Shown here piece by piece: positions 1 through 7,591 of a stretch of DNA of 7,699 bases. The notes beneath the pieces were generated by a model. It was given only the letters and a program-made list of their open reading frames with translations, had not been told where the DNA came from and made no database searches. Made by a program: the position numbers and the translations under genes. How positions within the stretch are numbered: the first letter of the stretch is position 1; each line of letters opens with the position of its first letter. Where the stretch lies: the IMG/VR virus record IMGVR_UViG_2711768007_000002. One strand, 5' to 3'. This stretch comes from a virus. Its lineage: Duplodnaviria; Heunggongvirae; Uroviricota; Caudoviricetes.

Positions 1-105
1 GAACAGGAGGGACAGCTGATAGAAACAGAAGCCACTGGAGCACCTCAAAAACACCATCATACACTAAATCAGTAAGTTGGCAGCATCACCTCATTCGTCT
101 GTTCC

Positions 106-612
106 TTAAATCTTCCAGGAAATTTCTGCATTGCCGTCAGCATCACCGGCACCTGTGAATTCAGCGTTGGTCAGCACCACGTTTTTGCCACTGACTGACG
201 TGGACATGAATCCACCCAGCGGCACTTTGATGGATTCATCAGTGGAGACGACAACGTATACCGGATCGCCTTTTTTGATAGTGCTGGCATCAAAATCAGA
301 ACCGAGATTAACGGTCACGTAGCCACGCTTCATGGCGTCGCCCGGGAAGTTCTTGCCTGTTCCCACCTGGCGAACCATGTCCGGCTGCGACGTGGTCGGA
401 TAAGGGCGCACGTAGATCCCCTTCACCTTGTCTGCGGTATCACCATCTGCCAGCGGCACGAAAAAACCGTCATCATCGTATTTACCAGCCAGGCCATAGG
501 CAGCGAAGGCGTTATCGGATTTAAGGACCACCGGTTCGACGGTTAAGTCCTGCGGGCGAGAGACAGCCCCGGCAATGCCAACAGGCATCCGGTACAGAAA
601 TACATTATTCAT
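106..612 (-). CDS. Phage head-associated protein of unknown function (168 aa), last ORF of the head-assembly block in this window; possibly a decoration or cement-type protein
   Basis: Uninterrupted 168-codon ORF with ATG at 612..610 and TAA at 108..106. Its start lies 3 nt downstream of the upstream gene's TAA, with an AAGGG Shine-Dalgarno just before it, suggesting translational coupling. The product is Gly/Asp/Val-rich with no hydrophobic segments. Function is inferred from position only. Confidence 0.6.
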   Translation of the reverse strand: MNNVFLYRMPVGIAGAVSRPQDLTVEPVVLKSDNAFAAYGLAGKYDDDGFFVPLADGDTADKVKGIYVRPYPTTSQPDMVRQVGTGKNFPGDAMKRGYVTVNLGSDFDASTIKKGDPVYVVVSTDESIKVPLGGFMSTSVSGKNVVLTNAEFTGAGDADGNAEISWKI

Positions 613-615
613 TTT

Positions 616-1836
616 TTACCCTTTACGGTTTGCCCAGAATTCAGCGTTTTGTTTGTTCAGGGAAGCGATACTGGTCATGCCCATGTTTAGGCGCTGTGCA
701 TCGCCGGTGGTGGCGCGGGTGTTTCGCCCTTTGGCAACCTCAGACACGGCATTAAACGCCATGTCGACCGATTGTTTCGGTAATTTGCGGATATCCGCAT
801 CACCGACTATCTGGCGAACCAGCGTTTTGTCAGCAGAAGCCAGAACCTCGCGTTTGAACGCGGTCGGTTTCATCTTACGGCTCAGATCGATACCCGGAAC
901 GATAACTTCGGCACGCCAGGCTGAGTCACCAGTAATCGTGGTTTCCTCTTCATCGTCCTCGCCGTCACCGGTCGGATTATCGTCAGGCTTATTATCGTTA
1001 TCGCCCGTGGCATTTCTTTCCAGCTTAGCCAGCAGGGCTTTCAGTAATGTTTTGAGGTCATCATCACTGTCGCCGGTTGGATCTCCGCCCATCTCTGGTG
1101 CTTTGTCCGGTAGTGGTTGCTGCGGGGACAGGTTGATGTTGAGATTAACGCCCTGCGGCAAATCCCCCTCATCTCCTGTAACCGATGCGGGAGCCGACTC
1201 CACCAGTTCGTTCATGGTGTCGGCATCTCCTGTCTTGATGGCCGCACGCATGCGGTTCCACCAGTTTTTCTTTTGATTTGCCATTGTGTCTCTGTCTCCA
1301 ATTGCACAACGATTTCCGGCTCTGCCTTTAGGGACAAGAGCCACATGGTTTCCGGTAATATCGACCTGCTCGGCTTTACCTGGCTCGGTCTGCTCGTACT
1401 CCGCGTCATAGCCGCACGACACTTCGCGCAGGCCATCTTCGATAAGCTGAATGGCGCTTTCGTCTTTGACGATAAGGTCAGCCAGCATCAAATCAGACTG
1501 CTCACCCGTCCCGCGCCGGACATTCTGGAGGTGCCCGACAGCAAGCTCTTTCCAGTTCTCGGGATTTACCAGCCGCACATTCCCGTTTTCATCTTCAGGA
1601 TGCAGGATCGTGATGCTCATCCCTTCGAATGAGGCAAGCGTGGCCGGATGGAATACCTGCTCAGGAGAACGCGTGACGACTATTTCACCGAACTTATCGG
1701 GTTTCAGTTTTGGCAGGTCATCAGCACCATAGAGCTGCTTACCTGTTCGTCCTATCGGCACGTCTTTGCACAGCAACGAGCCGTCAGCCAGGCGGTATCG
1801 GGTTTCCCCGAGCCTGGTCTCAAAAAAGTATTTCAT
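616..1836 (-). CDS. Phage capsid assembly protein, DUF2213-like (putative scaffold or prohead-protease type), 406 aa
   Basis: Uninterrupted 406-codon ORF with ATG at 1836..1834, 3 nt after the upstream gene's TAA, and TAA at 618..616. It has a globular N-terminal half, an acidic low-complexity linker (DSDDD...DNDNKPDDNPTGDGEDDEEE) and a helical K/R-rich C-terminal region, as in scaffolding-type proteins. It sits between the Mu F-like gene and a small head gene. The family assignment is from memory of DUF2213 phage proteins and was not searched. Confidence 0.65.
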   Translation of the reverse strand: MKYFFETRLGETRYRLADGSLLCKDVPIGRTGKQLYGADDLPKLKPDKFGEIVVTRSPEQVFHPATLASFEGMSITILHPEDENGNVRLVNPENWKELAVGHLQNVRRGTGEQSDLMLADLIVKDESAIQLIEDGLREVSCGYDAEYEQTEPGKAEQVDITGNHVALVPKGRAGNRCAIGDRDTMANQKKNWWNRMRAAIKTGDADTMNELVESAPASVTGDEGDLPQGVNLNINLSPQQPLPDKAPEMGGDPTGDSDDDLKTLLKALLAKLERNATGDNDNKPDDNPTGDGEDDEEETTITGDSAWRAEVIVPGIDLSRKMKPTAFKREVLASADKTLVRQIVGDADIRKLPKQSVDMAFNAVSEVAKGRNTRATTGDAQRLNMGMTSIASLNKQNAEFWANRKG

Positions 1837-1839
1837 GGG

Positions 1840-2622
1840 TTATGCTGCCCTTTTCATTGCGAATGGAACGCGAACAAACACGATCTCTTTATAGCAGCGG
1901 CAGTTTGGCAGCTCGCCCGCGTGGCCGGTCATGCCGTCCAAAGTTGGAGGTGAATCCCAGCGGACGAATTTACCTTTCATGTGATCGTGGGAATCTCGGA
2001 CATCGCCATCATCGGCTGTACGCCAAATATAACCATCCGAGCCAATAGCTATCGCTCGGGCCATATCCAGCGCGCCCGTTGCTCTTCCCAGTTCCGTTCG
2101 GGCAATCAGATCGGCCCTAGACTTAGCAACATCGCCGGTAGATGCAATCTCTTTAGCAAACTGCTCCGCCCGACCACCGGTGACAACAGCCTCTATCGCT
2201 TTGTTCTGGATGTCGTACACCCTGTCTGCGGCCTCGAGAGGCAGAGATTTGATGTACTTGACCTGTTCGGCGATGATGGATTGCATCACCTGGCCCACAG
2301 GAGCGCTTTCCACAAGATTGCGGAGCTCGCGACTGATGTTCTTGCTGTGTTGCCGCCAAACTTTCTCGTTCTGCCGGGTTAGGTCCGCAGTAAAGTTTTC
2401 CGCGACCTTTGTCGCCCAGGGGGTGATGATTTCACTGTAACGCTCCAGCGCCGCAATAATTTCCGTGATACTGTCATTTGAACCATCGTAGCGACCATTT
2501 ACGATGTCTCCGACCGCCCTCGCTATCCTGCGTAGGCTGGTTCGATACCGGATTTCCGCCTGACGGCTCCTGCGGTTCGTCATCAGGTTCGCCGATGCCG
2601 GGCGGCGCTTCATCTTCGGCAT
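1840..2622 (-). CDS. Phage head morphogenesis protein, Mu F / SPP1 gp7 family (260 aa from the first ATG)
   Basis: The C-terminal region carries the family-typical motif ...DSHDHMKGKFVRWDSPPTLDGMTGHAGELPNCRCY (conserved H...PNCRC). The ATG at 2622 is preceded by GAGGA 8 nt upstream. The ORF overlaps the portal 3' end by 149 nt in another frame, and no in-frame start exists downstream of the portal stop, so the start is uncertain. Stop is TAA at 1842..1840. Confidence 0.75.
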   Translation of the reverse strand: MPKMKRRPASANLMTNRRSRQAEIRYRTSLRRIARAVGDIVNGRYDGSNDSITEIIAALERYSEIITPWATKVAENFTADLTRQNEKVWRQHSKNISRELRNLVESAPVGQVMQSIIAEQVKYIKSLPLEAADRVYDIQNKAIEAVVTGGRAEQFAKEIASTGDVAKSRADLIARTELGRATGALDMARAIAIGSDGYIWRTADDGDVRDSHDHMKGKFVRWDSPPTLDGMTGHAGELPNCRCYKEIVFVRVPFAMKRAA

Positions 2623-3556
2623 TCTCGATGTCCTCGTCGGTAATGGATGCCCCGATGCCGGTTACGTCAGAATTTTCTCGCAAATCAGTCATAGCGGCTT
2701 TCAGTGTCATCAGACCATCACCCAGCGCCGTACTGATTGCGTTGGTGGTGTTTAACGCCACCGTTGAGCGATCGACATCAGACATTTGCCAGAGCGGGTT
2801 AAACTCAAACGTGAAATCGTCCGGCAGCGGCTTGCCAAGTTCCGAACGATGCATGATGTCCAGTATCCGCCGCACCGGAAGACGTAAACGCCTCTCCTGC
2901 AACGAACTGATGCGATCGTAATAGTTGGCAAGGTCTGCATCACCGGTAGAAAATCCTTTCGGGGACTGTCCGAACAACCGCACCAGTGGGATACCAACAG
3001 CGCCACTAATCTGTTCTACAAACTGCGAAAGGATGTCATCCAGACCACTGAAGCTGTACTGATGGGTTTCAAACTTATCCCGCGAGTCCATGAGCGTCAT
3101 GCCTTCATTACTCTGGAACTGTCGAATCAGGTCGATATTCTTCAGCAACGCTTCATACGCAGGACCACCAAGTGCGATAAGCTCGCGTAGCTTCTCCACG
3201 CTGTAGGTACGCAAATGCGCCTTGTAGACCAGCTGCGCCGCGCCGACAGTAGCGCTGTCGAACGCGGTAAGACGATCCCAGATACGCTCTACAACCGACA
3301 TTCCCCATTCGTTCTCGGTCATCTTCTGCTGAAATGGCAACGTGACGCCATCAAAGCGAATCAGGCGACTGTGATGAATGCGCCAGGCAGGAATTCCCGT
3401 TGCTGTGGTCACCACATCGTAAAACTCAGGTTTACCCAGGTCCGGCCCCATATCTTTAATGCGGCGGGTCAGTGCCGGGTCGACCATCCAGCGGTCGAGC
3501 GGGAGAATCCCCTTAAACTTGCCCTTACCGATGGTTTCGGGTCGCAGCGGGGTCAT
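2474..3556 (-). CDS. Longest uninterrupted segment of the portal frame (360 codons from an internal ATG, two codons after the second TAG); would encode an N-terminally truncated portal if translated
   Basis: This is the ORF given in the six-frame track. It is in the same frame as the upstream portal N-terminal segments. No convincing Shine-Dalgarno precedes the ATG at 3556 (upstream minus-strand sequence ATGATTGAGGGGTAGGCACCA has only a weak GAGGGG 12 nt away). Confidence 0.45.
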   Translation of the reverse strand: MTPLRPETIGKGKFKGILPLDRWMVDPALTRRIKDMGPDLGKPEFYDVVTTATGIPAWRIHHSRLIRFDGVTLPFQQKMTENEWGMSVVERIWDRLTAFDSATVGAAQLVYKAHLRTYSVEKLRELIALGGPAYEALLKNIDLIRQFQSNEGMTLMDSRDKFETHQYSFSGLDDILSQFVEQISGAVGIPLVRLFGQSPKGFSTGDADLANYYDRISSLQERRLRLPVRRILDIMHRSELGKPLPDDFTFEFNPLWQMSDVDRSTVALNTTNAISTALGDGLMTLKAAMTDLRENSDVTGIGASITDEDIENAEDEAPPGIGEPDDEPQEPSGGNPVSNQPTQDSEGGRRHRKWSLRWFK

Positions 3557-3940
3557 TGGTGCCTACCCCTCAATCATGATGAAACCCACCGCGCCGCCGT
3601 AGAGGCGCGACCATTTCAGCACGTCATTCAGCGCATCCCAGATTTGCAACTCATCCAGTTGTGATTCGAGAATGCCACGATCTTTTGCATCAATTTCCGA
3701 AGTGATGCGAATGCCTTTGCGGGTCATATCATCCGGGATAGCATCGACTGCTTCGCCGATGATCTAGGATGAACGATAGGACCATTCCACCAGCATGCGG
3801 TTACGACTGGTGAAATTAGCCCGGTAGGTGGATGCTGAGTGCTGGTTAGGTGTCTGCATCCCTACGCGGGCAATAAAATTCTCATAACCATCAGCTGTGG
3901 CCTGCACAGTTCGCCGCAGGGCTTGTTTGTTTCGTGCCAT
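2474..3940 (-). pseudogene. Portal protein gene, 488-codon frame interrupted by two in-frame amber (TAG) codons at codons 59 and 126
   Basis: The ATG at 3940..3938 overlaps the terL TGA (minus strand reads TGATG). Translation gives MARNKQALRRTVQATADGYENFIARVGMQTPNQHSASTYRANFTSRNRMLVEWSYRSS, then TAG (plus 3764-3766), then IIGEAVDAIPDDMTRKGIRITSEIDAKDRGILESQLDELQIWDALNDVLKWSRLYGGAVGFIMIEG, then TAG (plus 3563-3565), then APMTPLRPETIGKGKF... in the same frame to TGA at 2476..2474. Position directly after terL and the acidic C-terminal tail fit a portal. Confidence 0.75.
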
Positions 3941-5343
3941 CAGGCCTGTCTCCCCAGCTGTTCCCAGATATCCAGCGATGTATCGATTGGCGCGAAGGCC
4001 ATAATGAATGCATCAGCAACGTTTGGTGACGGTATCTCGCGTTTTGCGAGGTCTTTTTTACTTTCGACCATCACACGTCCGTTACGGTCGAAATCACGAT
4101 GAGGTGTTGTCAGTTCCAGTTTCAGCTTTTCAAGCAACGGACAACGAGAATCTATGCTGATCAGCTCATCCACAGGATACTGTTCTCCGTTGTTAATGGC
4201 GTTAAACGTATTTCTGAAACGGTCAGCCACCAGCCACCATGCCTGAGCCTTAAGATTTGCGAAAAAGTCTTTGTTGGGGATGCCGTTGTACTCGTCATCT
4301 GGCTCATGCACACCAGCACCGGCGTTAAACCTCTGGTAATTCACACGTCGCGCGTATGCGTTCTCGCTCTTCCGGTCAGCGTTAATTTCAGAGAATTTAG
4401 CACCGGCAGACGCACCAACACCGATAGAGTCGTAAACAATATCTGCTTCACGCTCCAGCGCCGCCTGATAAGTACGCTGGCAGCTCTTCAGTAATTCATC
4501 TTCTTTGGCCTTCCATTCGTCGGCCCAGAAAACAACGGATCCGTGACGGTAAACGTTAGCGCACTTATCTGTACCACTGTCAGCCACGTCAAAGCCAATA
4601 CGCTTTCTTCCACTGGGTTCGAAATTTAACGTTTTGTGCGCATCCACTGCGGCTTCTATCCAAGACAGTTTGATGATTGCCGCATCATCATCAGACTCCG
4701 GAACGCCCTCATACACATGTTTAAAACCATCCGGATCACGGCGTCGCGCCGCGTCGATAACCTTAAGCATGGTGTCAGACAGAAACGGATTTTCGTCATA
4801 GTTAATTTTGCGGATGAGAGTGCCTTCGGGCGGATCAACAACGAAGTTGCGCCAGACGAAATCAGTAACAAGTCCGGGGTTGAATATGAACCAGCATTCC
4901 GAACCCTCTTTACGGATCGTTGGCTCCAGAATTTTCCACTGGTATTCCGTCAGTGCGTGGGCTTCTTCCAGCCACAACACATCGATCCCCTCCAGTGACT
5001 TAATTTCTTCGATGTTGCGCCATAATCCATAAAAAACAAATTCCGAGCCAGTAACCCGGTTAATGATTTTGTTGTTCAGAATACGGAAACGGTGCCGCAG
5101 ACCAAACCTGTCTATCTGAATTTTGAGCAGGGTATACACCGACTCTTCGATTTTATTCTGGATCTGACGGGCACAACAAAAACGCAGGGTGTATTTATTC
5201 GACAGAAATATGGCAATGCCAGCGGCATCCCATGATTTTGACGATGACCGACCACCATAAAGCACTTTGTTACGTGCCCGCATAGTCCAGAAACTACGTA
5301 AAGCCGGATTCAGCGTCGGTTTGGATGTCAGAGTAGAAGTCAT
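3940..5343 (-). CDS. terL: Terminase large subunit, Sf6/P22 gp2-like (467 aa from the ATG at 5343)
   Basis: Walker A (VLYGGRSSSKS) lies about 30 residues from the proposed start, and a Walker B-like IDVLWLEEA follows. The block SLEGIDVLWLEEAHALTEYQWKILEPTIRKEGSECWFIFNPG matches the Sf6/P22-type terminase ATPase core as I remember it. Stop is TGA at 3942..3940. The start is uncertain: the track ORF begins at a TTG at 5451, in-frame ATGs lie at 5370, 5367, 5361 and 5343, and an AGGT precedes the ATGs at 5370/5367. I chose 5343 (MTSTLTSK...) on N-terminal spacing to Walker A. Confidence 0.85.
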   Translation of the reverse strand: MTSTLTSKPTLNPALRSFWTMRARNKVLYGGRSSSKSWDAAGIAIFLSNKYTLRFCCARQIQNKIEESVYTLLKIQIDRFGLRHRFRILNNKIINRVTGSEFVFYGLWRNIEEIKSLEGIDVLWLEEAHALTEYQWKILEPTIRKEGSECWFIFNPGLVTDFVWRNFVVDPPEGTLIRKINYDENPFLSDTMLKVIDAARRRDPDGFKHVYEGVPESDDDAAIIKLSWIEAAVDAHKTLNFEPSGRKRIGFDVADSGTDKCANVYRHGSVVFWADEWKAKEDELLKSCQRTYQAALEREADIVYDSIGVGASAGAKFSEINADRKSENAYARRVNYQRFNAGAGVHEPDDEYNGIPNKDFFANLKAQAWWLVADRFRNTFNAINNGEQYPVDELISIDSRCPLLEKLKLELTTPHRDFDRNGRVMVESKKDLAKREIPSPNVADAFIMAFAPIDTSLDIWEQLGRQA

Positions 5344-6058
5344 TGAGGTCACGCTCTCCATTGCCATCATCAATACCTGCATCACGGCGAAGACGATCAG
5401 CCTCCAGAGACACCTTATCAGTGGCGGCCTTGCGGTAGGCTGTATCAGCAAATATTTTTCCTACCGTCGCAAGCGTGCCAACGATGGACTCAATACGAAC
5501 TGTATTGCGCATCATTGCTTTCTCGGCGGCGCTGATATTTTCAATCAGCATCTTCCTTTCCTGGTCCCCATTAGCATCTTCCAGCGACACCAACCACCGA
5601 CCAATATTCTCTGCAGCGACAAGGTTGTTAGCACGAAGGCGAAATAATTCGTCCTCGAGCGTCAACGCTTTAGCGTCCTCTATCACCTCATCTTTGAGCA
5701 GAAGGCGACGGGCATAACCACCGTGTTTTAATGCCTGCTGGTTACCGGGTTGGAATGGGTTAGTCGGGGGATCGGTACGCATTCCGCGTATCGGTTTCGT
5801 ATCCGGTGTAGATTCTGTTTTTAGTTGCGTACTTTTTTGTGTAAGGCCAGTAATGGCAGGCTTTCTGCTGGTACGCACTTTCCTTTTTTGCGTACCATTT
5901 TTGCAAACCTGCGTACCGCCACTGCGTGCCCAACCAAGCTTTTTGGCCCTCTTCCTGATAGCCCCTTCTGTAACGCCGTATTTCTCGCCTATATCACGGA
6001 GGCTAAGGACTCCGGCCCGGTATGCCGATTCGATGGCCTCCCAGTCCGGTTTTGCCAT
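5294..6058 (-). CDS. terS: Terminase small subunit with N-terminal helix-turn-helix (254 aa)
   Basis: The N-terminus DWEAIESAYRAGVLSLRDIGEKYGVTEGAIRKRAKKLGW is the HTH signature of one terminase small-subunit family. It is followed by a basic S/T/P/K-rich linker and a helical C-terminal domain. The gene lies immediately upstream of terL, with AGGAAG 7 nt before the ATG at 6058. Stop is TAG at 5296..5294. Its 3' end overlaps the proposed terL start by about 50 nt. Confidence 0.75.
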   Translation of the reverse strand: MAKPDWEAIESAYRAGVLSLRDIGEKYGVTEGAIRKRAKKLGWARSGGTQVCKNGTQKRKVRTSRKPAITGLTQKSTQLKTESTPDTKPIRGMRTDPPTNPFQPGNQQALKHGGYARRLLLKDEVIEDAKALTLEDELFRLRANNLVAAENIGRWLVSLEDANGDQERKMLIENISAAEKAMMRNTVRIESIVGTLATVGKIFADTAYRKAATDKVSLEADRLRRDAGIDDGNGERDLNDFYSDIQTDAESGFT

Positions 6059-6255
6059 GATTATGCTTCCTGTGATTTACTGTTATCGCTGCCTGTCACA
6101 ATAGGTTGCTTTAATTCTTCCTCATCACTCACTCCTGCGACGCTCCGTGGCAGGGCCCCCCACAGGAGTACCTTGTAAATGTAAGGTGTTTAAGCCTAAA
6201 TTAAGTCGTATCACGGTTAAATAGCAAAGAAAAATTCACAGAAGGAAAGACATTG

Positions 6256-6765
6256 ATGGAGTGGATAAATGCTTTGATGAACTATTTTGTACTTCATCCA
6301 TATCGCCTATGGGGGCTTCTTTTTATAATAGCGTTCACAAAATCCACTTTACTCATTTCGGCGATATTGCCACCAGCATCAATTATGATGGCCACTGTAA
6401 TTACAGTCAGCAAGACGACTCTTTCACCATGGGAAGCTGGAATCACGGTCATGAGTGGCGCATGGTGCGGTACTATCGTTAATTACCATCTTGGTATAAT
6501 AATTGGGCATATCCCTCAACTTGCATGTATAATATCAAGCCGTTCCAATACAATAGAACGGGTTCGCCTTCAGTTGCAAAATAACTCTGTGTCAATACTT
6601 TTCACTTCGCGCTTTATCGCCGTGCTGCGTTATATTGCTCCTTTGGTGGCAGGAATGTTGCAACTTCATCCAGTGAAAGTGTATACAGTGAGTCTGATTT
6701 CAGCTGCTAGCTGGTCAGCACTTTATGTTGGTAGTTTTAGCTTCGTGTTGCCTTTTTTTAGCTAA
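6256..6765 (+). CDS. Multipass inner-membrane protein, DedA / VTT (SNARE-associated) family-like; moron on the strand opposite the late operon (169 aa)
   Basis: The ATG at 6256 is preceded by GAAGGAAAG 6 nt upstream (the track ORF starts at the adjacent TTG at 6253). Stop is TAA at 6763-6765. The product is strongly hydrophobic with several predicted transmembrane segments and DedA-like motifs (FTKSTLLISAILPPASIMMA; SGAWCGTIVNYHLGIIIGH). The region is visibly AT-rich relative to the flanking phage genes. The family call is from motif memory, not a search. Confidence 0.6.
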   Translation: MEWINALMNYFVLHPYRLWGLLFIIAFTKSTLLISAILPPASIMMATVITVSKTTLSPWEAGITVMSGAWCGTIVNYHLGIIIGHIPQLACIISSRSNTIERVRLQLQNNSVSILFTSRFIAVLRYIAPLVAGMLQLHPVKVYTVSLISAASWSALYVGSFSFVLPFFS

Positions 6766-6853
6766 ACTGCCCATAAAAAGCTCTTGCGAATCCAGCTTCC
6801 CCCATTCCTCTGACAACAGAATCTGATTTGAAGGATAATGAGTAAAATTACCG

Positions 6854-7125
6854 CTACCCCCCAAGGCATTGGATCCTGATGTACTCCTGAAGCATTCTCA
6901 ATGCTGTCTGGTCGCTGATGATTCCGTCCCGGATACCGAGAACGTTTCGTCCAGCAACTGGAGAGAGTTCGACGGTGGCATCATTGCCCATGCCGGAGGC
7001 GCTGGAGGTTTCGGCTGAGGATGGCACAGGGCATTTTCCTTTGACGAGCACCCGACCACCATTATCAAGCTTGCGCCGAAGAGCATCATTTTCAGCTTTC
7101 GCATCAGCTAACTCCTTCGTGTATT
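6854..7125 (-). CDS. Rz: Rz i-spanin, C-terminal 89 codons only (5' end lost in the assembly gap)
   Basis: Translation YTKELADAKAENDALRRKLDNGGRVLVKGKCPV...LQEYIRIQCLGG matches the conserved YTKELADAKAENDALR block and C-terminal Cys of lambda Rz as remembered. Stop is TAG at 6856..6854. The gene follows the endolysin on the same strand and contains Rz1 in another frame. Confidence 0.8.
6898..7104 (-). CDS. Rz1: Rz1 o-spanin, outer-membrane lipoprotein nested in the +1 frame of Rz (68 aa)
   Basis: MRKLKMMLFGASLIMVVGCSS carries a signal peptide and lipobox (VVGC), followed by a proline-rich segment PQPKPPAPPAWAMMPPS, as in lambda Rz1 (MLKLKMML...VVGC...PPPPPAW). A strong AAGGAG sits 7 nt upstream of the ATG at 7104. 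Stop is TGA at 6900..6898. Confidence 0.75.
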   Translation of the reverse strand: MRKLKMMLFGASLIMVVGCSSKENALCHPQPKPPAPPAWAMMPPSNSLQLLDETFSVSGTESSATRQH

Positions 7126-7305
7126 NNNNNNNNNNNNNNNNNNNNNNNNNNNNNNNNNNNNNNNNNNNNNNNNNNNNNNNNNNNNNNNNNNNNNNNNNNN
7201 NNNNNNNNNNNNNNNNNNNNNNNNNNNNNNNNNNNNNNNNNNNNNNNNNNNNNNNNNNNNNNNNNNNNNNNNNNNNNNNNNNNNNNNNNNNNNNNNNNNN
7301 NNNNN
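7126..7305. other. Assembly gap (180 N) within the lysis cassette
   Basis: Run of exactly 180 N characters. It removes the endolysin 3' end and the Rz 5' end, and makes the two genes appear as one 245-codon ORF in the six-frame track. Confidence 0.98.
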
Positions 7306-7591
7306 CCGGTATATCGACTTTGATGTACGGGTTAATTTGTCTGGCGACAGTGGCAAGGTCTTTATTCAGGAGAGCTTTGCATTCTGCTTCGGTATACGTT
7401 TTACCAGGCATGATGTCTTTTCCGGTGTGTCCGTGACATACAGTCCATACACCAATGATATCTTTGTATAGTATGTAGCTGACACCTTCCAGACCATCGT
7501 TACCACCTGGGCCAGTGATTAACACAGATGCTATAGCAACAGCCCCGCCACCAATAGCAACTGCAACAGCCTTGCGTAATGATGGCGACAT
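7306..7591 (-). CDS. R: SAR endolysin (phage-21 R-type lysozyme), N-terminal 95 codons; 3' end lost in the assembly gap
   Basis: The N-terminus [28 protein letters not shown] is a Gly/Ala-rich signal-arrest-release segment. It is followed by [27 protein letters not shown] with Glu35, Asp44 and Thr50 at the positions of the phage-21 R catalytic triad. A GAGAGGTG Shine-Dalgarno precedes the ATG at 7591. Confidence 0.85.

What the first reader, a model, noticed from the sequence alone, without database searches (positions are those of the whole stretch)
6180..6853. AT-rich moron encoding a DedA/VTT-like membrane protein, on the opposite strand between the lysis cassette and the packaging genes
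This is the position lambda uses for bor, between Rz and the packaging genes on the opposite strand. It is a classic moron slot for genes expressed from the prophage in lysogens. Here it holds a 169-codon multipass membrane protein with DedA-like motifs, shorter than typical chromosomal DedA proteins of about 200-220 aa. The gene has its own strong Shine-Dalgarno, and a weak sigma70-like promoter candidate (TTGTAA, 18 bp, TAAATT at about 6173-6202) lies upstream. DedA-family proteins are linked to membrane homeostasis, lipid-carrier recycling and polymyxin tolerance, so a prophage-borne copy could be a lysogenic-conversion or superinfection-related factor.
Basis: partly seen in the sequence, partly recalled or inferred. 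Interest (0 to 1): 0.5.

Follow-up and report, generated by a model that had tools for sequence, protein, structure and literature searches.

The report
Prophage-carried short DedA membrane gene
A decaying Shigella/E. coli prophage carries a compact 0.6-kb cargo gene for an unusually short, divergent DedA-type inner-membrane protein; its chromosomal counterpart in Enterobacter is switched on with the polymyxin-resistance (PhoPQ) regulon, so it is a plausible but untested phage-delivered envelope-stress gene.

Summary
ORF 6256-6765 (+, 169 aa) passes Pfam's VTT/DedA threshold (52.4 bits against 33.9). It lies antisense between Rz/Rz1 and terS, is AT-rich (42% GC against 49-54%), and is absent from prophages that share the packaging module.

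It is a 602-bp cassette (6181-6782). The same cassette sits in the same slot of an unrelated Citrobacter youngae lambdoid prophage.

The protein belongs to a small clade of ~170-aa DedA proteins. This clade keeps the two conserved arginines and the serine, but has an invariant Lys where YqjA has Glu39 and an invariant Ala where it has Asp51. It also lacks the C-terminal helix.

Chromosomal orthologs in Enterobacter face an M-box-mgtE gene and have two strong PhoP boxes. By synteny, that gene was induced 23-fold in a published mgrB-deleted E. hormaechei.

The window keeps only the proximal box-plus-−10 promoter. The box has decayed as a PhoP site (6.4 bits) but matches the PmrA repeat at 11 of 12 positions.

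dN/dS is 0.15-0.23. The ORF is intact in 19 of 19 copies while neighbouring phage genes decay.

Best reading: a stress-regulated lysogenic-conversion lipid or lipid-carrier translocase. Regulation in Shigella and the substrate are both inferred. Interest is moderate.

The parts
6181..6782 (+). Moron cassette: promoter, leader, DedA ORF and 17 nt of trailer. This is the stretch homologous to the Citrobacter copies.
   Evidence: Local alignments place the homology at window 6181-6782 against the C. youngae prophage and 6186-6781 against C. meridianamericanus.
6187..6205 (+). Direct-repeat site for an OmpR-family activator, in the place of a -35. As a PhoP-type box it reads TGTTTA-AGCCT-AAATTA (6187-6203); as a PmrA-type box it reads TTTAAG-CCTAA-ATTAAG (6189-6205).
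   Evidence: The GTT.A and ATT.A columns are invariant across the window, 4 Citrobacter and 25 Enterobacter/Lelliottia upstream regions. The PhoP matrix score is only 6.4 bits here, against 12.4 in the C. youngae prophage and 17-19.5 in Enterobacter. The PmrA-type pattern matches at 11 of 12 positions and is the only such site in the window, where 0.28 are expected by chance.
6217..6222 (+). Candidate -10 hexamer TTAAAT, 13 nt downstream of the box. The predicted transcription start is near 6229-6231, giving a leader of about 26 nt.
   Evidence: The T.AAT columns are invariant in the footprint alignment. The spacing fits PhoP promoter architecture I, in which the box lies 11-13 nt upstream of the -10 and leaders are 20-34 nt (PMC3335776). 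The transcription start is inferred, not measured.
6240..6249 (+). Shine-Dalgarno region AGAAGGAAAG.
   Evidence: Read directly from the sequence. A GGAG-type element occupies the same place in homologs.
6256..6765 (+). 169-codon ORF plus stop, encoding a short K-clade DedA/VTT-domain inner-membrane protein. Key codons are K29 (6340-6342), A41 (6376-6378), S42 (6379-6381), R119 (6610-6612) and R125 (6628-6630).
   Evidence: Pfam VTT_dom scores 52.4 bits against a threshold of 33.9. The AF2 model has pLDDT 75. dN/dS is 0.15-0.23.
6061..6180 (.). Left spacer of unassigned origin between the terS start and the cassette. It is found only in genomes that carry the cassette.
   Evidence: Homology to the shared packaging module ends at about 6060-6093. 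A sensitive blastn of 6055-6195 hits only 5 of 5426 E. coli genomes. It shows no significant RNA structure.
6783..6809 (.). Right spacer between the cassette and the point where homology to the common Rz lysis module resumes (6810). It contains no intrinsic terminator.
   Evidence: The terminator scan and folding found nothing.
6854..7125 (-). 3' part of the Rz i-spanin gene, with Rz1 (6898-7104) embedded in it. It is convergent with the DedA gene and is interrupted by the masked N run at 7126-7305.
   Evidence: Pfam Phage_lysis, phrog_13 and phrog_3198 match. The N run is located.
5294..6058 (-). Small terminase subunit gene: the first packaging gene, immediately to the left of the slot.
   Evidence: phrog_370 matches at E 7.5e-95.

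Best explanation
**What it is.** The region holds a real, selectively maintained accessory gene (a moron) in a defective lambdoid prophage of Shigella flexneri and Shigella-like E. coli. A 602-bp cassette (6181-6782) sits antisense between Rz/Rz1 and terS. It carries its own activator-dependent promoter, a leader of about 26 nt with a Shine-Dalgarno sequence, and a 169-aa minimal DedA-superfamily inner-membrane protein.

**The protein (shown).** It belongs to a small clade of ~170-aa DedA proteins in Enterobacter, Lelliottia, Citrobacter, Kosakonia, Hafnia, Morganella and Arsenophonus. The clade keeps the hairpin arginines (R119, R125), the serine (S42) and the tryptophan (W153). It has an invariant Lys at the YqjA Glu39 position and an invariant Ala at the Asp51 position. 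It also lacks the C-terminal helix.

**Origin (shown for the relationships, inferred for the direction).** The gene is a chromosomal PhoPQ-regulon gene in Enterobacter. There it is divergent from an M-box-mgtE gene, is preceded by two strong PhoP boxes, and was induced 23-fold when mgrB was deleted. I infer that phages captured it together with its proximal promoter and delivered it to hosts that have no native copy.

**How it most likely works (inferred).** In the lysogen the gene is transcribed from the box-plus-TTAAAT promoter when an OmpR-family envelope-stress regulator (PhoP or PmrA/BasR) is active, for example at low Mg2+, acid pH or in the presence of cationic peptides. The protein then acts like other DedA proteins, as a translocase of an anionic lipid or lipid carrier. 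The most plausible substrate is undecaprenyl phosphate. Extra recycling capacity would support PhoP/PmrA-driven envelope remodelling such as L-Ara4N addition to lipid A, and so tolerance of cationic peptides. With Lys in place of Glu, the mechanism probably differs from the acid-dependent YqjA type.
For: **Family.** Pfam VTT_dom scores 52.4 bits against a threshold of 33.9. The AF2 model (pLDDT 75, pTM 0.70) shows helix-break-helix segments at residues 30-41 and 118-124, flanked by long helices, with no C-terminal extra helix.

**Clade signature.** K29, S30, T31, P39, P40, A41, S42, R119, R125 and W153 are invariant in 20 members. The same signature appears in the ~170-aa representatives P0022-P0032, whereas the outgroups have Glu. 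The alignment to YqjA puts E39 opposite K29, D51 opposite A41, S52 opposite S42, and R130/R136 opposite R119/R125. The functional importance of these YqjA residues comes from bioRxiv 10.64898/2026.09.20.752871, and the UptA R118-E32-W146 network from PMC11474028.

**Moron behaviour.**
- Related E. coli prophages share 91-6060 at 93-97% identity but have a 61-aa gene in the slot.
- Only 6 of 5426 complete E. coli genomes carry the cassette.
- The same cassette (78% aa identity) sits in the lysis|packaging slot, again on the opposite strand, of an unrelated C. youngae prophage with a GpA terminase and a GH19 endolysin.

**Selection.** dN/dS is 0.15-0.23. The ORF is intact in 19 of 19 Shigella-type copies, while the portal has two nonsense codons, terL is split by IS elements, or the head genes are deleted.

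**Regulation of the orthologs.**
- The order mgtE<-|->dedA|<-SDR holds in the large majority of the Enterobacter/Lelliottia loci.
- An M-box riboswitch scores 113 bits on the mgtE leader.
- PhoP-box matrix scores are 19.5 and 17.0 bits in E. hormaechei, against a training median of 14.4.
- In mgrB-deleted E. hormaechei, N5F16_08425 (MgtE) rose 19.6-fold, N5F16_08430 (DedA) 23.1-fold and N5F16_08435 (SDR) 3.1-fold, alongside arn (35-56-fold), pagP and virK.

**Promoter in the window.** The half-site and -10 columns are conserved. The architecture matches PhoP class I/II promoters. No sigma-70 consensus promoter lies upstream.

**Functional precedent.** The DedA protein PA4029 is a C55-P flippase required for L-Ara4N modification of lipid A and for colistin resistance (PMC12893004).
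Against: - In the window the box has decayed. It scores 6.4 bits, rank 17 of 14,966 positions, with a 1-nt indel relative to orthologs. PhoP control in Shigella may therefore be weak or lost.
- The PmrA-type match is post hoc and only modestly unlikely by chance: 0.28 sites are expected in the window.
- There are no expression data for the Shigella gene.
- Equating N5F16_08430 with the ortholog rests on synteny, not on sequence.
- No terminator was found, so the cassette is not a fully insulated unit.
- The substrate is pure inference. The NCBIfam UptA and DedA equivalogs score far below their cut-offs: 19.9 against 250, and 31 against 236.
- The Glu that contributes to C55-P binding in UptA is missing.
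- Fold searches gave no significant match in PDB or BFVD, and the AlphaFold database library was unavailable.
Confidence: 0.5

Rival explanations
1. Neutral hitchhiker. The cassette was functional in its donor, but in Shigella it is a silent or barely expressed relic in a decaying prophage. Its promoter box has degenerated, and its intactness reflects small target size and recent common ancestry rather than selection.
For: - The PhoP-box score falls from 17-19.5 bits in Enterobacter to 12.4 in the Citrobacter prophage and 6.4 in the window.
- All Shigella-type copies are 99-100% identical, so they carry little independent information.
- The surrounding prophage is clearly defective.
- AT enrichment (GC3 38%) is consistent with relaxed or xenogeneic status.
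Against: - The ORF is intact in 19 of 19 copies, across at least four different decay patterns of the neighbouring genes, with IS-mediated deletions ending just outside it.
- dN/dS against the C. youngae prophage copy is 0.23.
- The -10, the spacing and the Shine-Dalgarno sequence are retained.
- The exact protein occurs on at least 1000 contigs.
Confidence: 0.2
2. General-purpose DedA paralog expressed at a low constitutive level, for example from the reader's weak sigma-70 promoter. It would add redundant membrane-homeostasis capacity of the YqjA/YghB kind, with no stress-specific regulation.
For: - It is a member of the DedA superfamily.
- E. coli and Shigella already have several partly redundant DedA paralogs (redundancy is reported in PMC10846249, listed).
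- Kosakonia orthologs have a different upstream region resembling a sigma-70 promoter, TTGGTG-N18-TATAAA, with no high-scoring PhoP box.
Against:
- There is no recognisable -35 for the conserved -10.
- The protein lacks E39 and D51, which YqjA needs to function.
- It scores 31 bits against a cut-off of 236 for the DedA equivalog.
- The ortholog is strongly inducible rather than constitutive.
Confidence: 0.15
3. Superinfection-exclusion or anti-phage membrane protein. It would be expressed in the lysogen and alter the inner membrane or lipid-carrier-dependent surface structures so that incoming phages fail.
For: - It occupies the classical lysogen-expressed moron slot, and is an inner-membrane protein on the strand opposite the late genes.
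- The same slot is used in a second prophage backbone.
Against: - There is no PADLOC match.
- Orthologs are ordinary chromosomal genes in about 30 Enterobacter species, tied to mgtE and PhoP boxes rather than to defence islands.
- No close homolog exists in 50,697 deposited phage records.
Confidence: 0.08
4. The main role is in cis. Convergent, unterminated transcription from the cassette runs antisense into Rz/Rz1 and the endolysin gene, and dampens leaky late-gene expression in the lysogen. On this view the protein is secondary.
For: - No intrinsic terminator lies between the stop codon (6765) and Rz (6854).
- The orientation is convergent in both prophage backbones.
Against: - Purifying selection acts on the protein sequence.
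- Chromosomal orthologs sit in unrelated contexts.
- The lysis genes themselves are deleted in several copies that keep the ORF.
Confidence: 0.05

Closest known systems
E. coli YqjA/YghB (DedA superfamily, PF09335)
   Same: It shares the VTT domain. The predicted core is the same, with two re-entrant hairpins between transmembrane helices. The hairpin arginines (YqjA R130/R136 = R119/R125) and the functionally important serine (S52 = S42) are conserved.
   Different: It is only 22-23% identical. It has Lys for E39 and Ala for D51, both invariant in the clade. It lacks the C-terminal helix and about 11 N-terminal residues. It scores 31 bits against a cut-off of 236 for the NCBIfam DedA equivalog.
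UptA / PA4029-type DedA undecaprenyl-phosphate flippases
   Same: It shares the superfamily and the conserved arginines and tryptophan that bind C55-P in UptA. PA4029 links C55-P recycling to L-Ara4N and polymyxin resistance, and the Enterobacter ortholog is co-induced with that same pathway.
   Different: UptA E32, which pairs with R118 and contributes to C55-P binding, is replaced by Lys. The UptA equivalog scores are 19.9 and 16.3 bits against cut-offs of 250 and 300. No substrate has been tested.
Phage lambda bor and other lysogen-expressed morons between Rz and the packaging genes
   Same: It has the same position and the opposite-strand orientation. It is a small AT-rich cargo gene with its own promoter, absent from close relatives of the phage, and it encodes an envelope protein. 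The comparison with bor itself rests on established knowledge of lambda.
   Different: The cargo is a multipass inner-membrane DedA protein rather than an outer-membrane lipoprotein. No terminator was found, and the promoter looks activator-dependent.
PhoP-activated, horizontally acquired genes of Salmonella (virK, mig-14, ybjX, pagC, pagK; architectures I/II of Zwir et al. 2012)
   Same: A direct-repeat box lies 12-13 nt upstream of the -10 in place of a -35. The predicted leader is about 26 nt. The gene is AT-rich and horizontally acquired, and its orthologs have a second upstream box as in architecture II.
   Different: In the window only one degenerate box remains (6.4 bits). PhoP dependence is documented, by transcriptomics, only for the Enterobacter ortholog.
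DedA-PAP2-LssY_C fusion proteins (~650-690 aa)
   Same: In the exhaustive HMMER search they are the nearest relatives outside the clade. Their VTT domain aligns over residues ~2-158. The PAP2 phosphatase fusion again points to polyprenyl-phosphate metabolism, which is an inference.
   Different: They are 25-30% identical, are multi-domain, and keep the canonical Glu in the sequences examined from the outgroup set.

Membership tests
DedA superfamily (Pfam PF09335 VTT domain) | Significant match to the VTT_dom profile above the gathering score | tested here: met
   52.4 bits against 33.9, E 9.2e-14, residues 41-161 covering profile positions 3-121 of 123.
DedA superfamily (Pfam PF09335 VTT domain) | Core fold of two re-entrant hairpins between transmembrane helices | tested here: inconclusive
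   The AF2 model (pLDDT 75, pTM 0.70) has helix-break-helix at 30-41 and 118-124 between long helices, consistent with the validated YqjA topology. Foldseek against PDB and BFVD gave no significant match; the best were giant-virus 'SNARE associated Golgi protein' models at E 0.5-3. The AlphaFold database library was unavailable.
DedA superfamily (Pfam PF09335 VTT domain) | Conserved hairpin arginines (YqjA R130/R136) and Ser52 | tested here: met
   R119, R125 and S42 are invariant in the clade and align with R130, R136 and S52. Their functional role is reported.
YqjA/YghB-type DedA (acid-residue dependent) | Membrane-embedded acidic residues E39 and D51 | tested here: not met
   K29 and A41 occupy these columns and are invariant in 20 clade members and in the further ~170-aa representatives. 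D51A is non-functional and the E39A/D51A double mutant is predicted non-functional in YqjA.
YqjA/YghB-type DedA (acid-residue dependent) | NCBIfam equivalog NF008102 (PRK10847) above its cut-off | tested here: not met
   31 bits against a cut-off of 236.
UptA-type undecaprenyl-phosphate transporter | NCBIfam equivalogs NF052604 / NF052605 above their cut-offs | tested here: not met
   19.9 and 16.3 bits against cut-offs of 250 and 300.
UptA-type undecaprenyl-phosphate transporter | C55-P binding or translocation activity | not testable with these tools
   This needs native mass spectrometry, amphomycin sensitivity assays or complementation assays.
Phage moron | Extra gene between conserved modules, absent from closely related phages | tested here: met
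   Prophages 93-97% identical over 91-6060 lack it. Only 6 of 5426 E. coli genomes have it. The junctions lie at about 6060-6093 and at 6810.
Phage moron | Base composition different from the surrounding phage genes | tested here: met
   GC is 42.0% and GC3 38.5%, against 49-54% and 50-59% for neighbours.
Phage moron | Own promoter | tested here: inconclusive
   A conserved box plus a -10 TTAAAT is present, but there are no transcript data and no sigma-70 consensus match.
Phage moron | Own terminator | tested here: not met
   No intrinsic terminator or stable hairpin lies in 6760-6860.
PhoP regulon (direct target) | PhoP box (T/G)GTTTA-N5-(T/G)GTTTA at a productive distance from the -10 | tested here: inconclusive
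   The window site scores 6.4 bits, is 13 nt from the -10, and ranks 17 of 14,966 positions. Orthologs score 17-19.5 bits in Enterobacter and 12.4 bits in the C. youngae prophage. Consensus and spacing rules are from PMC3335776.
PhoP regulon (direct target) | PhoP/PhoQ-dependent expression | not testable with these tools
   The only evidence is indirect. The syntenic E. hormaechei gene N5F16_08430 rose 23.1-fold in an mgrB-deleted mutant.
PmrA/BasR regulon (direct target) | Direct repeat YTTAAK-N5-YTTAAK near the -35 | tested here: inconclusive
   TTTAAG-CCTAA-ATTAAG (6189-6205) matches 11 of 12 positions and is the only site in the window, where 0.28 are expected. The consensus is as cited in PMC10927774. 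No binding or expression data exist.
Known anti-phage defence systems | Match to a PADLOC model | tested here: not met
   0 families at E <= 1.

The most novel reading that the evidence does not exclude
The K-clade would be a mechanistically distinct DedA type. In it a fixed lysine replaces the glutamate of the re-entrant hairpin, together with Asp-to-Ala. This would create an all-cationic site (K29, R119, R125) that moves undecaprenyl phosphate or another anionic lipid without the acid-residue or proton-linked step. Such a protein would be specialised for conditions of low Mg2+ and active PhoPQ/PmrAB. Lambdoid phages would have mobilised this gene with its regulator-responsive promoter, making it a transferable determinant of tolerance to cationic peptides and polymyxin in Shigella and E. 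coli, which lack a native copy. The box may have been retuned from PhoP towards PmrA/BasR.
Probability: 0.15. Interest if true: 0.7.

Novelty: new variant of a known kind. Interest (0 to 1): 0.45.

Why it matters
DedA proteins are emerging as lipid and lipid-carrier translocases that underlie polymyxin resistance. How they work, and what their conserved acidic residues do, is still unsettled.

This locus offers a natural minimal DedA of 169 aa. It has a charge-reversed hairpin residue that is nevertheless under purifying selection.

The gene is also mobile. The same 0.6-kb cassette sits in the same slot of two unrelated prophages and has reached Shigella flexneri, where the exact protein is seen on at least 1000 contigs.

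If the gene is induced by PhoP or PmrA and aids envelope remodelling, it would be a phage-borne member of the cationic-peptide resistance regulon in an intracellular pathogen. It would also identify the function of the strongly PhoPQ-induced, mgtE-linked DedA of the Enterobacter cloacae complex, where colistin heteroresistance is a clinical problem.

If it proves inert, it is an ordinary decaying moron.

Tried and rejected
Rejected as the functional element. It matches 8 of 12 positions, the scan did not report it, and it straddles the edge of the conserved block.
- **RNA elements.** Rfam found nothing in the window. No structured leader or terminator was found around the ORF. The hairpin-like GC-rich stretch at 6143-6170 is not significant (z -0.9 and -1.25).
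- **Structure by homology.** The sequence search of PDB gave nothing relevant. Foldseek against PDB and BFVD gave nothing significant. afdb50 was not available. The first AF2 run, on a 20-sequence alignment, was too poor to use (pLDDT 54.6). A 37-sequence alignment raised it to 75.
- **Isolated phages.** No DNA match. The only protein matches were at 30% identity or less and looked like host or contig contamination.
- **Plasmids.** The only close hit is a C. freundii 'plasmid' record that carries icd, purB and phoPQ, so it looks chromosomal.
- **Defence function.** No PADLOC match.
- **PhoP consensus with 3 mismatches.** Not discriminating in the window: 25 matches against 13.7 expected. It was replaced by a matrix built from footprinted boxes.
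- **Literature.** Searches for a described prophage DedA or a Shigella PhoP-regulon DedA found nothing specific. One PmrA-box search returned only irrelevant papers.
- **dinI adjacency.** Considered as a sign of one ancestral prophage in Citrobacter. Gene orientations differ between C. freundii and the C. youngae prophage, so it was not pursued.
Full report
**1.

The + strand ORF 6256-6765 starts at an ATG, with an in-frame TTG at 6253, and encodes 169 aa. It matches Pfam VTT_dom (PF09335) at 52.4 bits, above the gathering score of 33.9, over residues 41-161.

Every neighbour lies on the - strand:
- cement protein 106-612;
- DUF2213 scaffold 616-1836;
- Mu-F-like head morphogenesis protein 1840-2622;
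- portal 2474-3940;
- TerL 3940-5451;
- TerS 5294-6058;
- to the right, Rz (6854 onward) with the embedded Rz1 (6898-7104), and a lysozyme.

The ORF is 42.0% GC (GC3 38.5%), against 49-54% for its neighbours. RefSeq already annotates the identical protein as 'DedA family protein' WP_011069285.1. The exact sequence occurs on at least 1000 contigs, named from Shigella flexneri. The gene is therefore known as an annotation. My literature searches found no study of it.

**2. It is a compact cassette in a module junction**

Many E. coli prophages share window 91-6060 at 93-97% identity. Homology stops at the terS start. In the slot they carry a 61-aa gene on the late strand and a different lysis cassette. 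On the other side, about 960 E. coli genomes share the Rz module, and there homology resumes at window 6810.

Between these junctions:
- 6181-6782 is homologous to the Citrobacter copies of the gene;
- 6061-6180 is found only in cassette-bearing genomes.

Only 6 of 5426 complete E. coli genomes carry the cassette. All copies are at least 99% identical, and the three regions I inspected (FDAARGOS_943, O121 strain 201805972 and the S. flexneri locus L021) are IS-rich and Shigella-like.

A copy 78% identical at the protein level lies in an unrelated lambdoid prophage of Citrobacter youngae. That prophage has a GpA-type terminase, a Phage_portal_2 portal and a GH19 endolysin. The copy is again between lysis and packaging genes, and again on the opposite strand.

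In C. freundii and C. meridianamericanus the gene sits next to a dinI-like gene. In C. freundii it is directly beside icd, with ars genes and an Ail/Lom-family gene nearby; I read this as a prophage remnant. No deposited phage genome has a close homolog.

**3. The protein is a divergent, minimal DedA**

The word-indexed search found only 21 relatives. Exhaustive HMMER over 1.84 billion representatives found 15 at E <= 1e-10 and 583 at E <= 1e-3. This is a very small yield for a family as large as DedA, so the protein is an outlier.

Species-level scanning places the clade as follows:
- about 30 Enterobacter and Lelliottia species, 46-53% identical;
- Kosakonia, 72%;
- Citrobacter, 57-78%;
- Hafnia, 43%;
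- Arsenophonus, about 42%;
- Morganella, about 37%.

All members are about 167-180 aa. K29-S30-T31, P39-P40-A41-S42, R119, R125 and W153 are invariant.

Aligned with E. coli YqjA, K29 sits at E39, A41 at D51, S42 at S52, and R119/R125 at R130/R136. The C-terminal helix of YqjA, DedA and YabI is absent. A 2026 preprint reports E39/D51 and R130/R136 as the conserved core of YqjA. It places them at the tips of the two re-entrant hairpins where a lipid headgroup is modelled, and finds that D51A, R136A and S52C fail to complement. In B. subtilis UptA, R118 bonds with E32 and W146, and all of these contribute to C55-P binding. The clade therefore keeps the cationic and Ser/Trp parts of the site but replaces the acid with a base.

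NCBIfam equivalogs for DedA and UptA score far below their cut-offs. With a 37-sequence alignment, AlphaFold2 gives pLDDT 75 and pTM 0.70. The helix pattern is consistent with three transmembrane helices plus two hairpins. Fold searches of PDB and BFVD were uninformative, and the AlphaFold database library was unavailable.

The nearest relatives outside the clade are N-terminal DedA domains of DedA-PAP2-LssY_C fusion proteins.

**4. Selection**

dN/dS between the window copy and relatives is 0.15-0.23, including 0.23 against the C. youngae prophage copy. The prophage itself is decaying in several independent ways:
- in the window the portal has two nonsense codons, W59* and Q126*;
- in FDAARGOS_943 terL is split by IS2 and the Mu-F gene has a stop;
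- in the O121 strain, IS911 and IS600 have removed everything from terS to the tail genes;
- in S. flexneri SFBU1023 and several IMG/VR contigs, IS elements flank the cassette.

Across the window plus 18 related loci, the DedA ORF is full-length without stops in 19 of 19. The copies are nearly identical, so this is suggestive rather than decisive.

**5. Regulation: the most informative lead**

Upstream sequences of all loci and a footprint alignment of 30 of them show three invariant elements shared by the window, Citrobacter, Enterobacter and Lelliottia:
- GTT(G/T)A;
- ATT(T/G/A)A, 11 bp downstream of the first element, or 12 bp in the window under the alignment's register (the hexamer reading TGTTTA/AAATTA instead keeps 11 bp and puts the extra base before the -10);
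- T(T/C)(A/T)AAT, a further 12-13 nt downstream.

This is the layout of PhoP-activated promoters: a (T/G)GTTTA-N5-(T/G)GTTTA box 11-13 nt upstream of the -10 in place of a -35, with leaders of 20-34 nt. Horizontally acquired genes typically have a second upstream box (Zwir et al. 2012). Enterobacter orthologs do have a second, canonical box, TGTTTAAGAACGGTTTAG, about 37 nt upstream.

I built a matrix from the 38 footprinted Salmonella boxes, whose own scores have a median of 14.4 and a maximum of 21.8 bits.

| Locus | Box score (bits) |
|---|---|
| E. hormaechei, proximal / distal | 19.5 / 17.0 |
| Lelliottia, proximal / distal | 18.0 / 16.2 |
| C. youngae prophage | 12.4 |
| Other Citrobacter | 8.6-11.0 |
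| Window (rank 17 of 14,966 positions) | 6.4 |

In Enterobacter the gene is divergent from mgtE, whose leader carries an M-box Mg2+ riboswitch (113 bits), and is followed by an SDR gene. That same three-gene order carries consecutive locus tags in E. hormaechei 4236. In its mgrB-deleted, colistin-resistant derivative:
- MgtE rose 19.6-fold;
- the DedA gene rose 23.1-fold;
- the SDR gene rose 3.1-fold;
- arn rose 35-56-fold, pagP 27-fold, virK/ybjX 45-fold, and slyB, ompX and mgtA also rose.

Equating the two genes rests on synteny. I could not read that genome.

The window retains the -10 (TTAAAT, 6217-6222), the spacing and the Shine-Dalgarno sequence, and has no sigma-70 consensus promoter. 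Its second half-site has drifted to AAATTA. Read one base over, the site is TTTAAG-CCTAA-ATTAAG. This matches 11 of 12 positions of the PmrA repeat YTTAAK-N5-YTTAAK. The cassette is therefore most simply read as an activator-dependent promoter for an OmpR-family envelope-stress regulator. Which regulator acts in Shigella, and how strongly, is open.

**6. Mechanism proposed**

Shown:
- DedA-superfamily membership;
- the clade signature;
- the cassette structure and its recurrence in two prophage backbones;
- purifying selection;
- strong PhoP boxes and the mgtE/M-box linkage of the chromosomal orthologs.

From the literature:
- PhoPQ-derepressed induction of the syntenic Enterobacter gene;
- DedA proteins acting as translocases of C55-P and phospholipid;
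- the requirement for a DedA C55-P flippase for L-Ara4N modification and colistin resistance in P. aeruginosa.

Inferred: the prophage gene is induced under PhoP/PmrA-activating conditions and supplies extra lipid-carrier or anionic-lipid translocation that supports envelope remodelling. This would make it a lysogenic-conversion factor for hosts that have no native K-clade gene. Sensitive blastn finds no divergent copy in E. coli.

The rivals are a neutral relic, a constitutive redundant DedA, superinfection exclusion, and antisense interference with the lysis genes. They are weighed in their own section. The neutral-relic view is the strongest, because the box has decayed in the window.

**7. 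Verdict**

Two corrections apply:
- the promoter is a conserved box-plus-TTAAAT element, not TTGTAA/TAAATT;
- the protein is not a typical DedA, but a member of a small Lys-for-Glu clade outside every characterised subfamily.

It is a new variant of known kinds, namely a DedA protein and a bor-slot moron. It is of moderate interest, and it comes with a concrete, testable link to the PhoPQ/PmrAB polymyxin-resistance circuit.

Noticed in passing
window 3563-3565 and 3764-3766 (- strand, portal gene 2474-3940): The portal (DUF1073/Phage_portal_3) gene carries two in-frame nonsense codons, W59* and Q126*, relative to the otherwise near-identical intact copy in E. coli FDAARGOS_943. This prophage cannot make a portal. 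The same two stops occur in IMG/VR loci L087, L088 and L094.
   Followed up: yes
window 7126-7305: A run of 180 N (masked sequence) interrupts the lysozyme/Rz junction. As a result, the ORF lists show artificial X-containing fusions such as 6854-7591.
   Followed up: partly
L036 7672-7841 (- strand), E. hormaechei: An M-box Mg2+ riboswitch (RF00380, 113 bits) lies in the leader of the mgtE gene that is divergent from the chromosomal ortholog of the DedA gene. The shared intergenic region holds two high-scoring PhoP boxes. mgtE also lies next to the ortholog in Arsenophonus and within about 3 kb in Hafnia.
   Followed up: partly
P0035, P0038, P0040, P0056: The closest relatives outside the short clade are 500-690-aa fusions of an N-terminal DedA domain with a PAP2 phosphatase domain, most of them also carrying an LssY_C domain. 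This architecture suggests coupled polyprenyl-(pyro)phosphate dephosphorylation and flipping. One 1223-aa hit (P0066) fuses DedA to ankyrin repeats and a Ser/Thr kinase.
   Followed up: no
L101 (NZ_CP056259.1, C. freundii 'plasmid' pRHBSTW-00902_4, 82 kb): A record typed as a non-mobilizable plasmid carries icd, rluE, mnmA, hflD, purB and phoPQ. It therefore looks like a piece of chromosome. The DedA homolog (74%) lies between a dinI-like gene and icd, a classical lambdoid attachment site, with ars genes and an Ail/Lom-family gene nearby.
   Followed up: no
window 6431-6444 and 6788-6801: A 14-nt inverted repeat (13 of 14 complementary, GGGAAGCTGGAATC / GAATCCAGCTTCCC) has one arm inside the DedA ORF and the other in the spacer just beyond the cassette end. 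My rough estimate is about 0.07 such pairs by chance in 900 nt. The arm inside the ORF is not conserved in the Citrobacter copies.
   Followed up: no
L026, L028, L024 (Kosakonia and a soil MAG), upstream of 8001: Orthologs that are 72-73% identical lie downstream of a 700-aa EF-G-like GTPase gene. Their upstream region is different, TTGGTG-N18-TATAAA, with no high-scoring PhoP box. Regulation of the clade therefore differs between genera.
   Followed up: no
L001 22654-22964 and L104 11146-11452: The same prophage backbone carries a cluster of four tRNA genes (Ile, Arg, Thr, and Gly or Val) between the Q-like region and the holin, just beyond the right end of the window.
   Followed up: no
L085 about 7925-7935 (IMG/VR copy): One Shigella-type copy has a 1-nt deletion inside the candidate -10 (GGTTAATAGC instead of GGTTAAATAGC). 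This is a natural promoter variant that could be compared for expression.
   Followed up: no
window 3940-5451 (- strand): The mechanically listed TerL ORF starts at a TTG 36 codons upstream of the start annotated in relatives (467 aa) and overlaps terS by about 160 nt. The longer form is probably an ORF-calling artefact.
   Followed up: no
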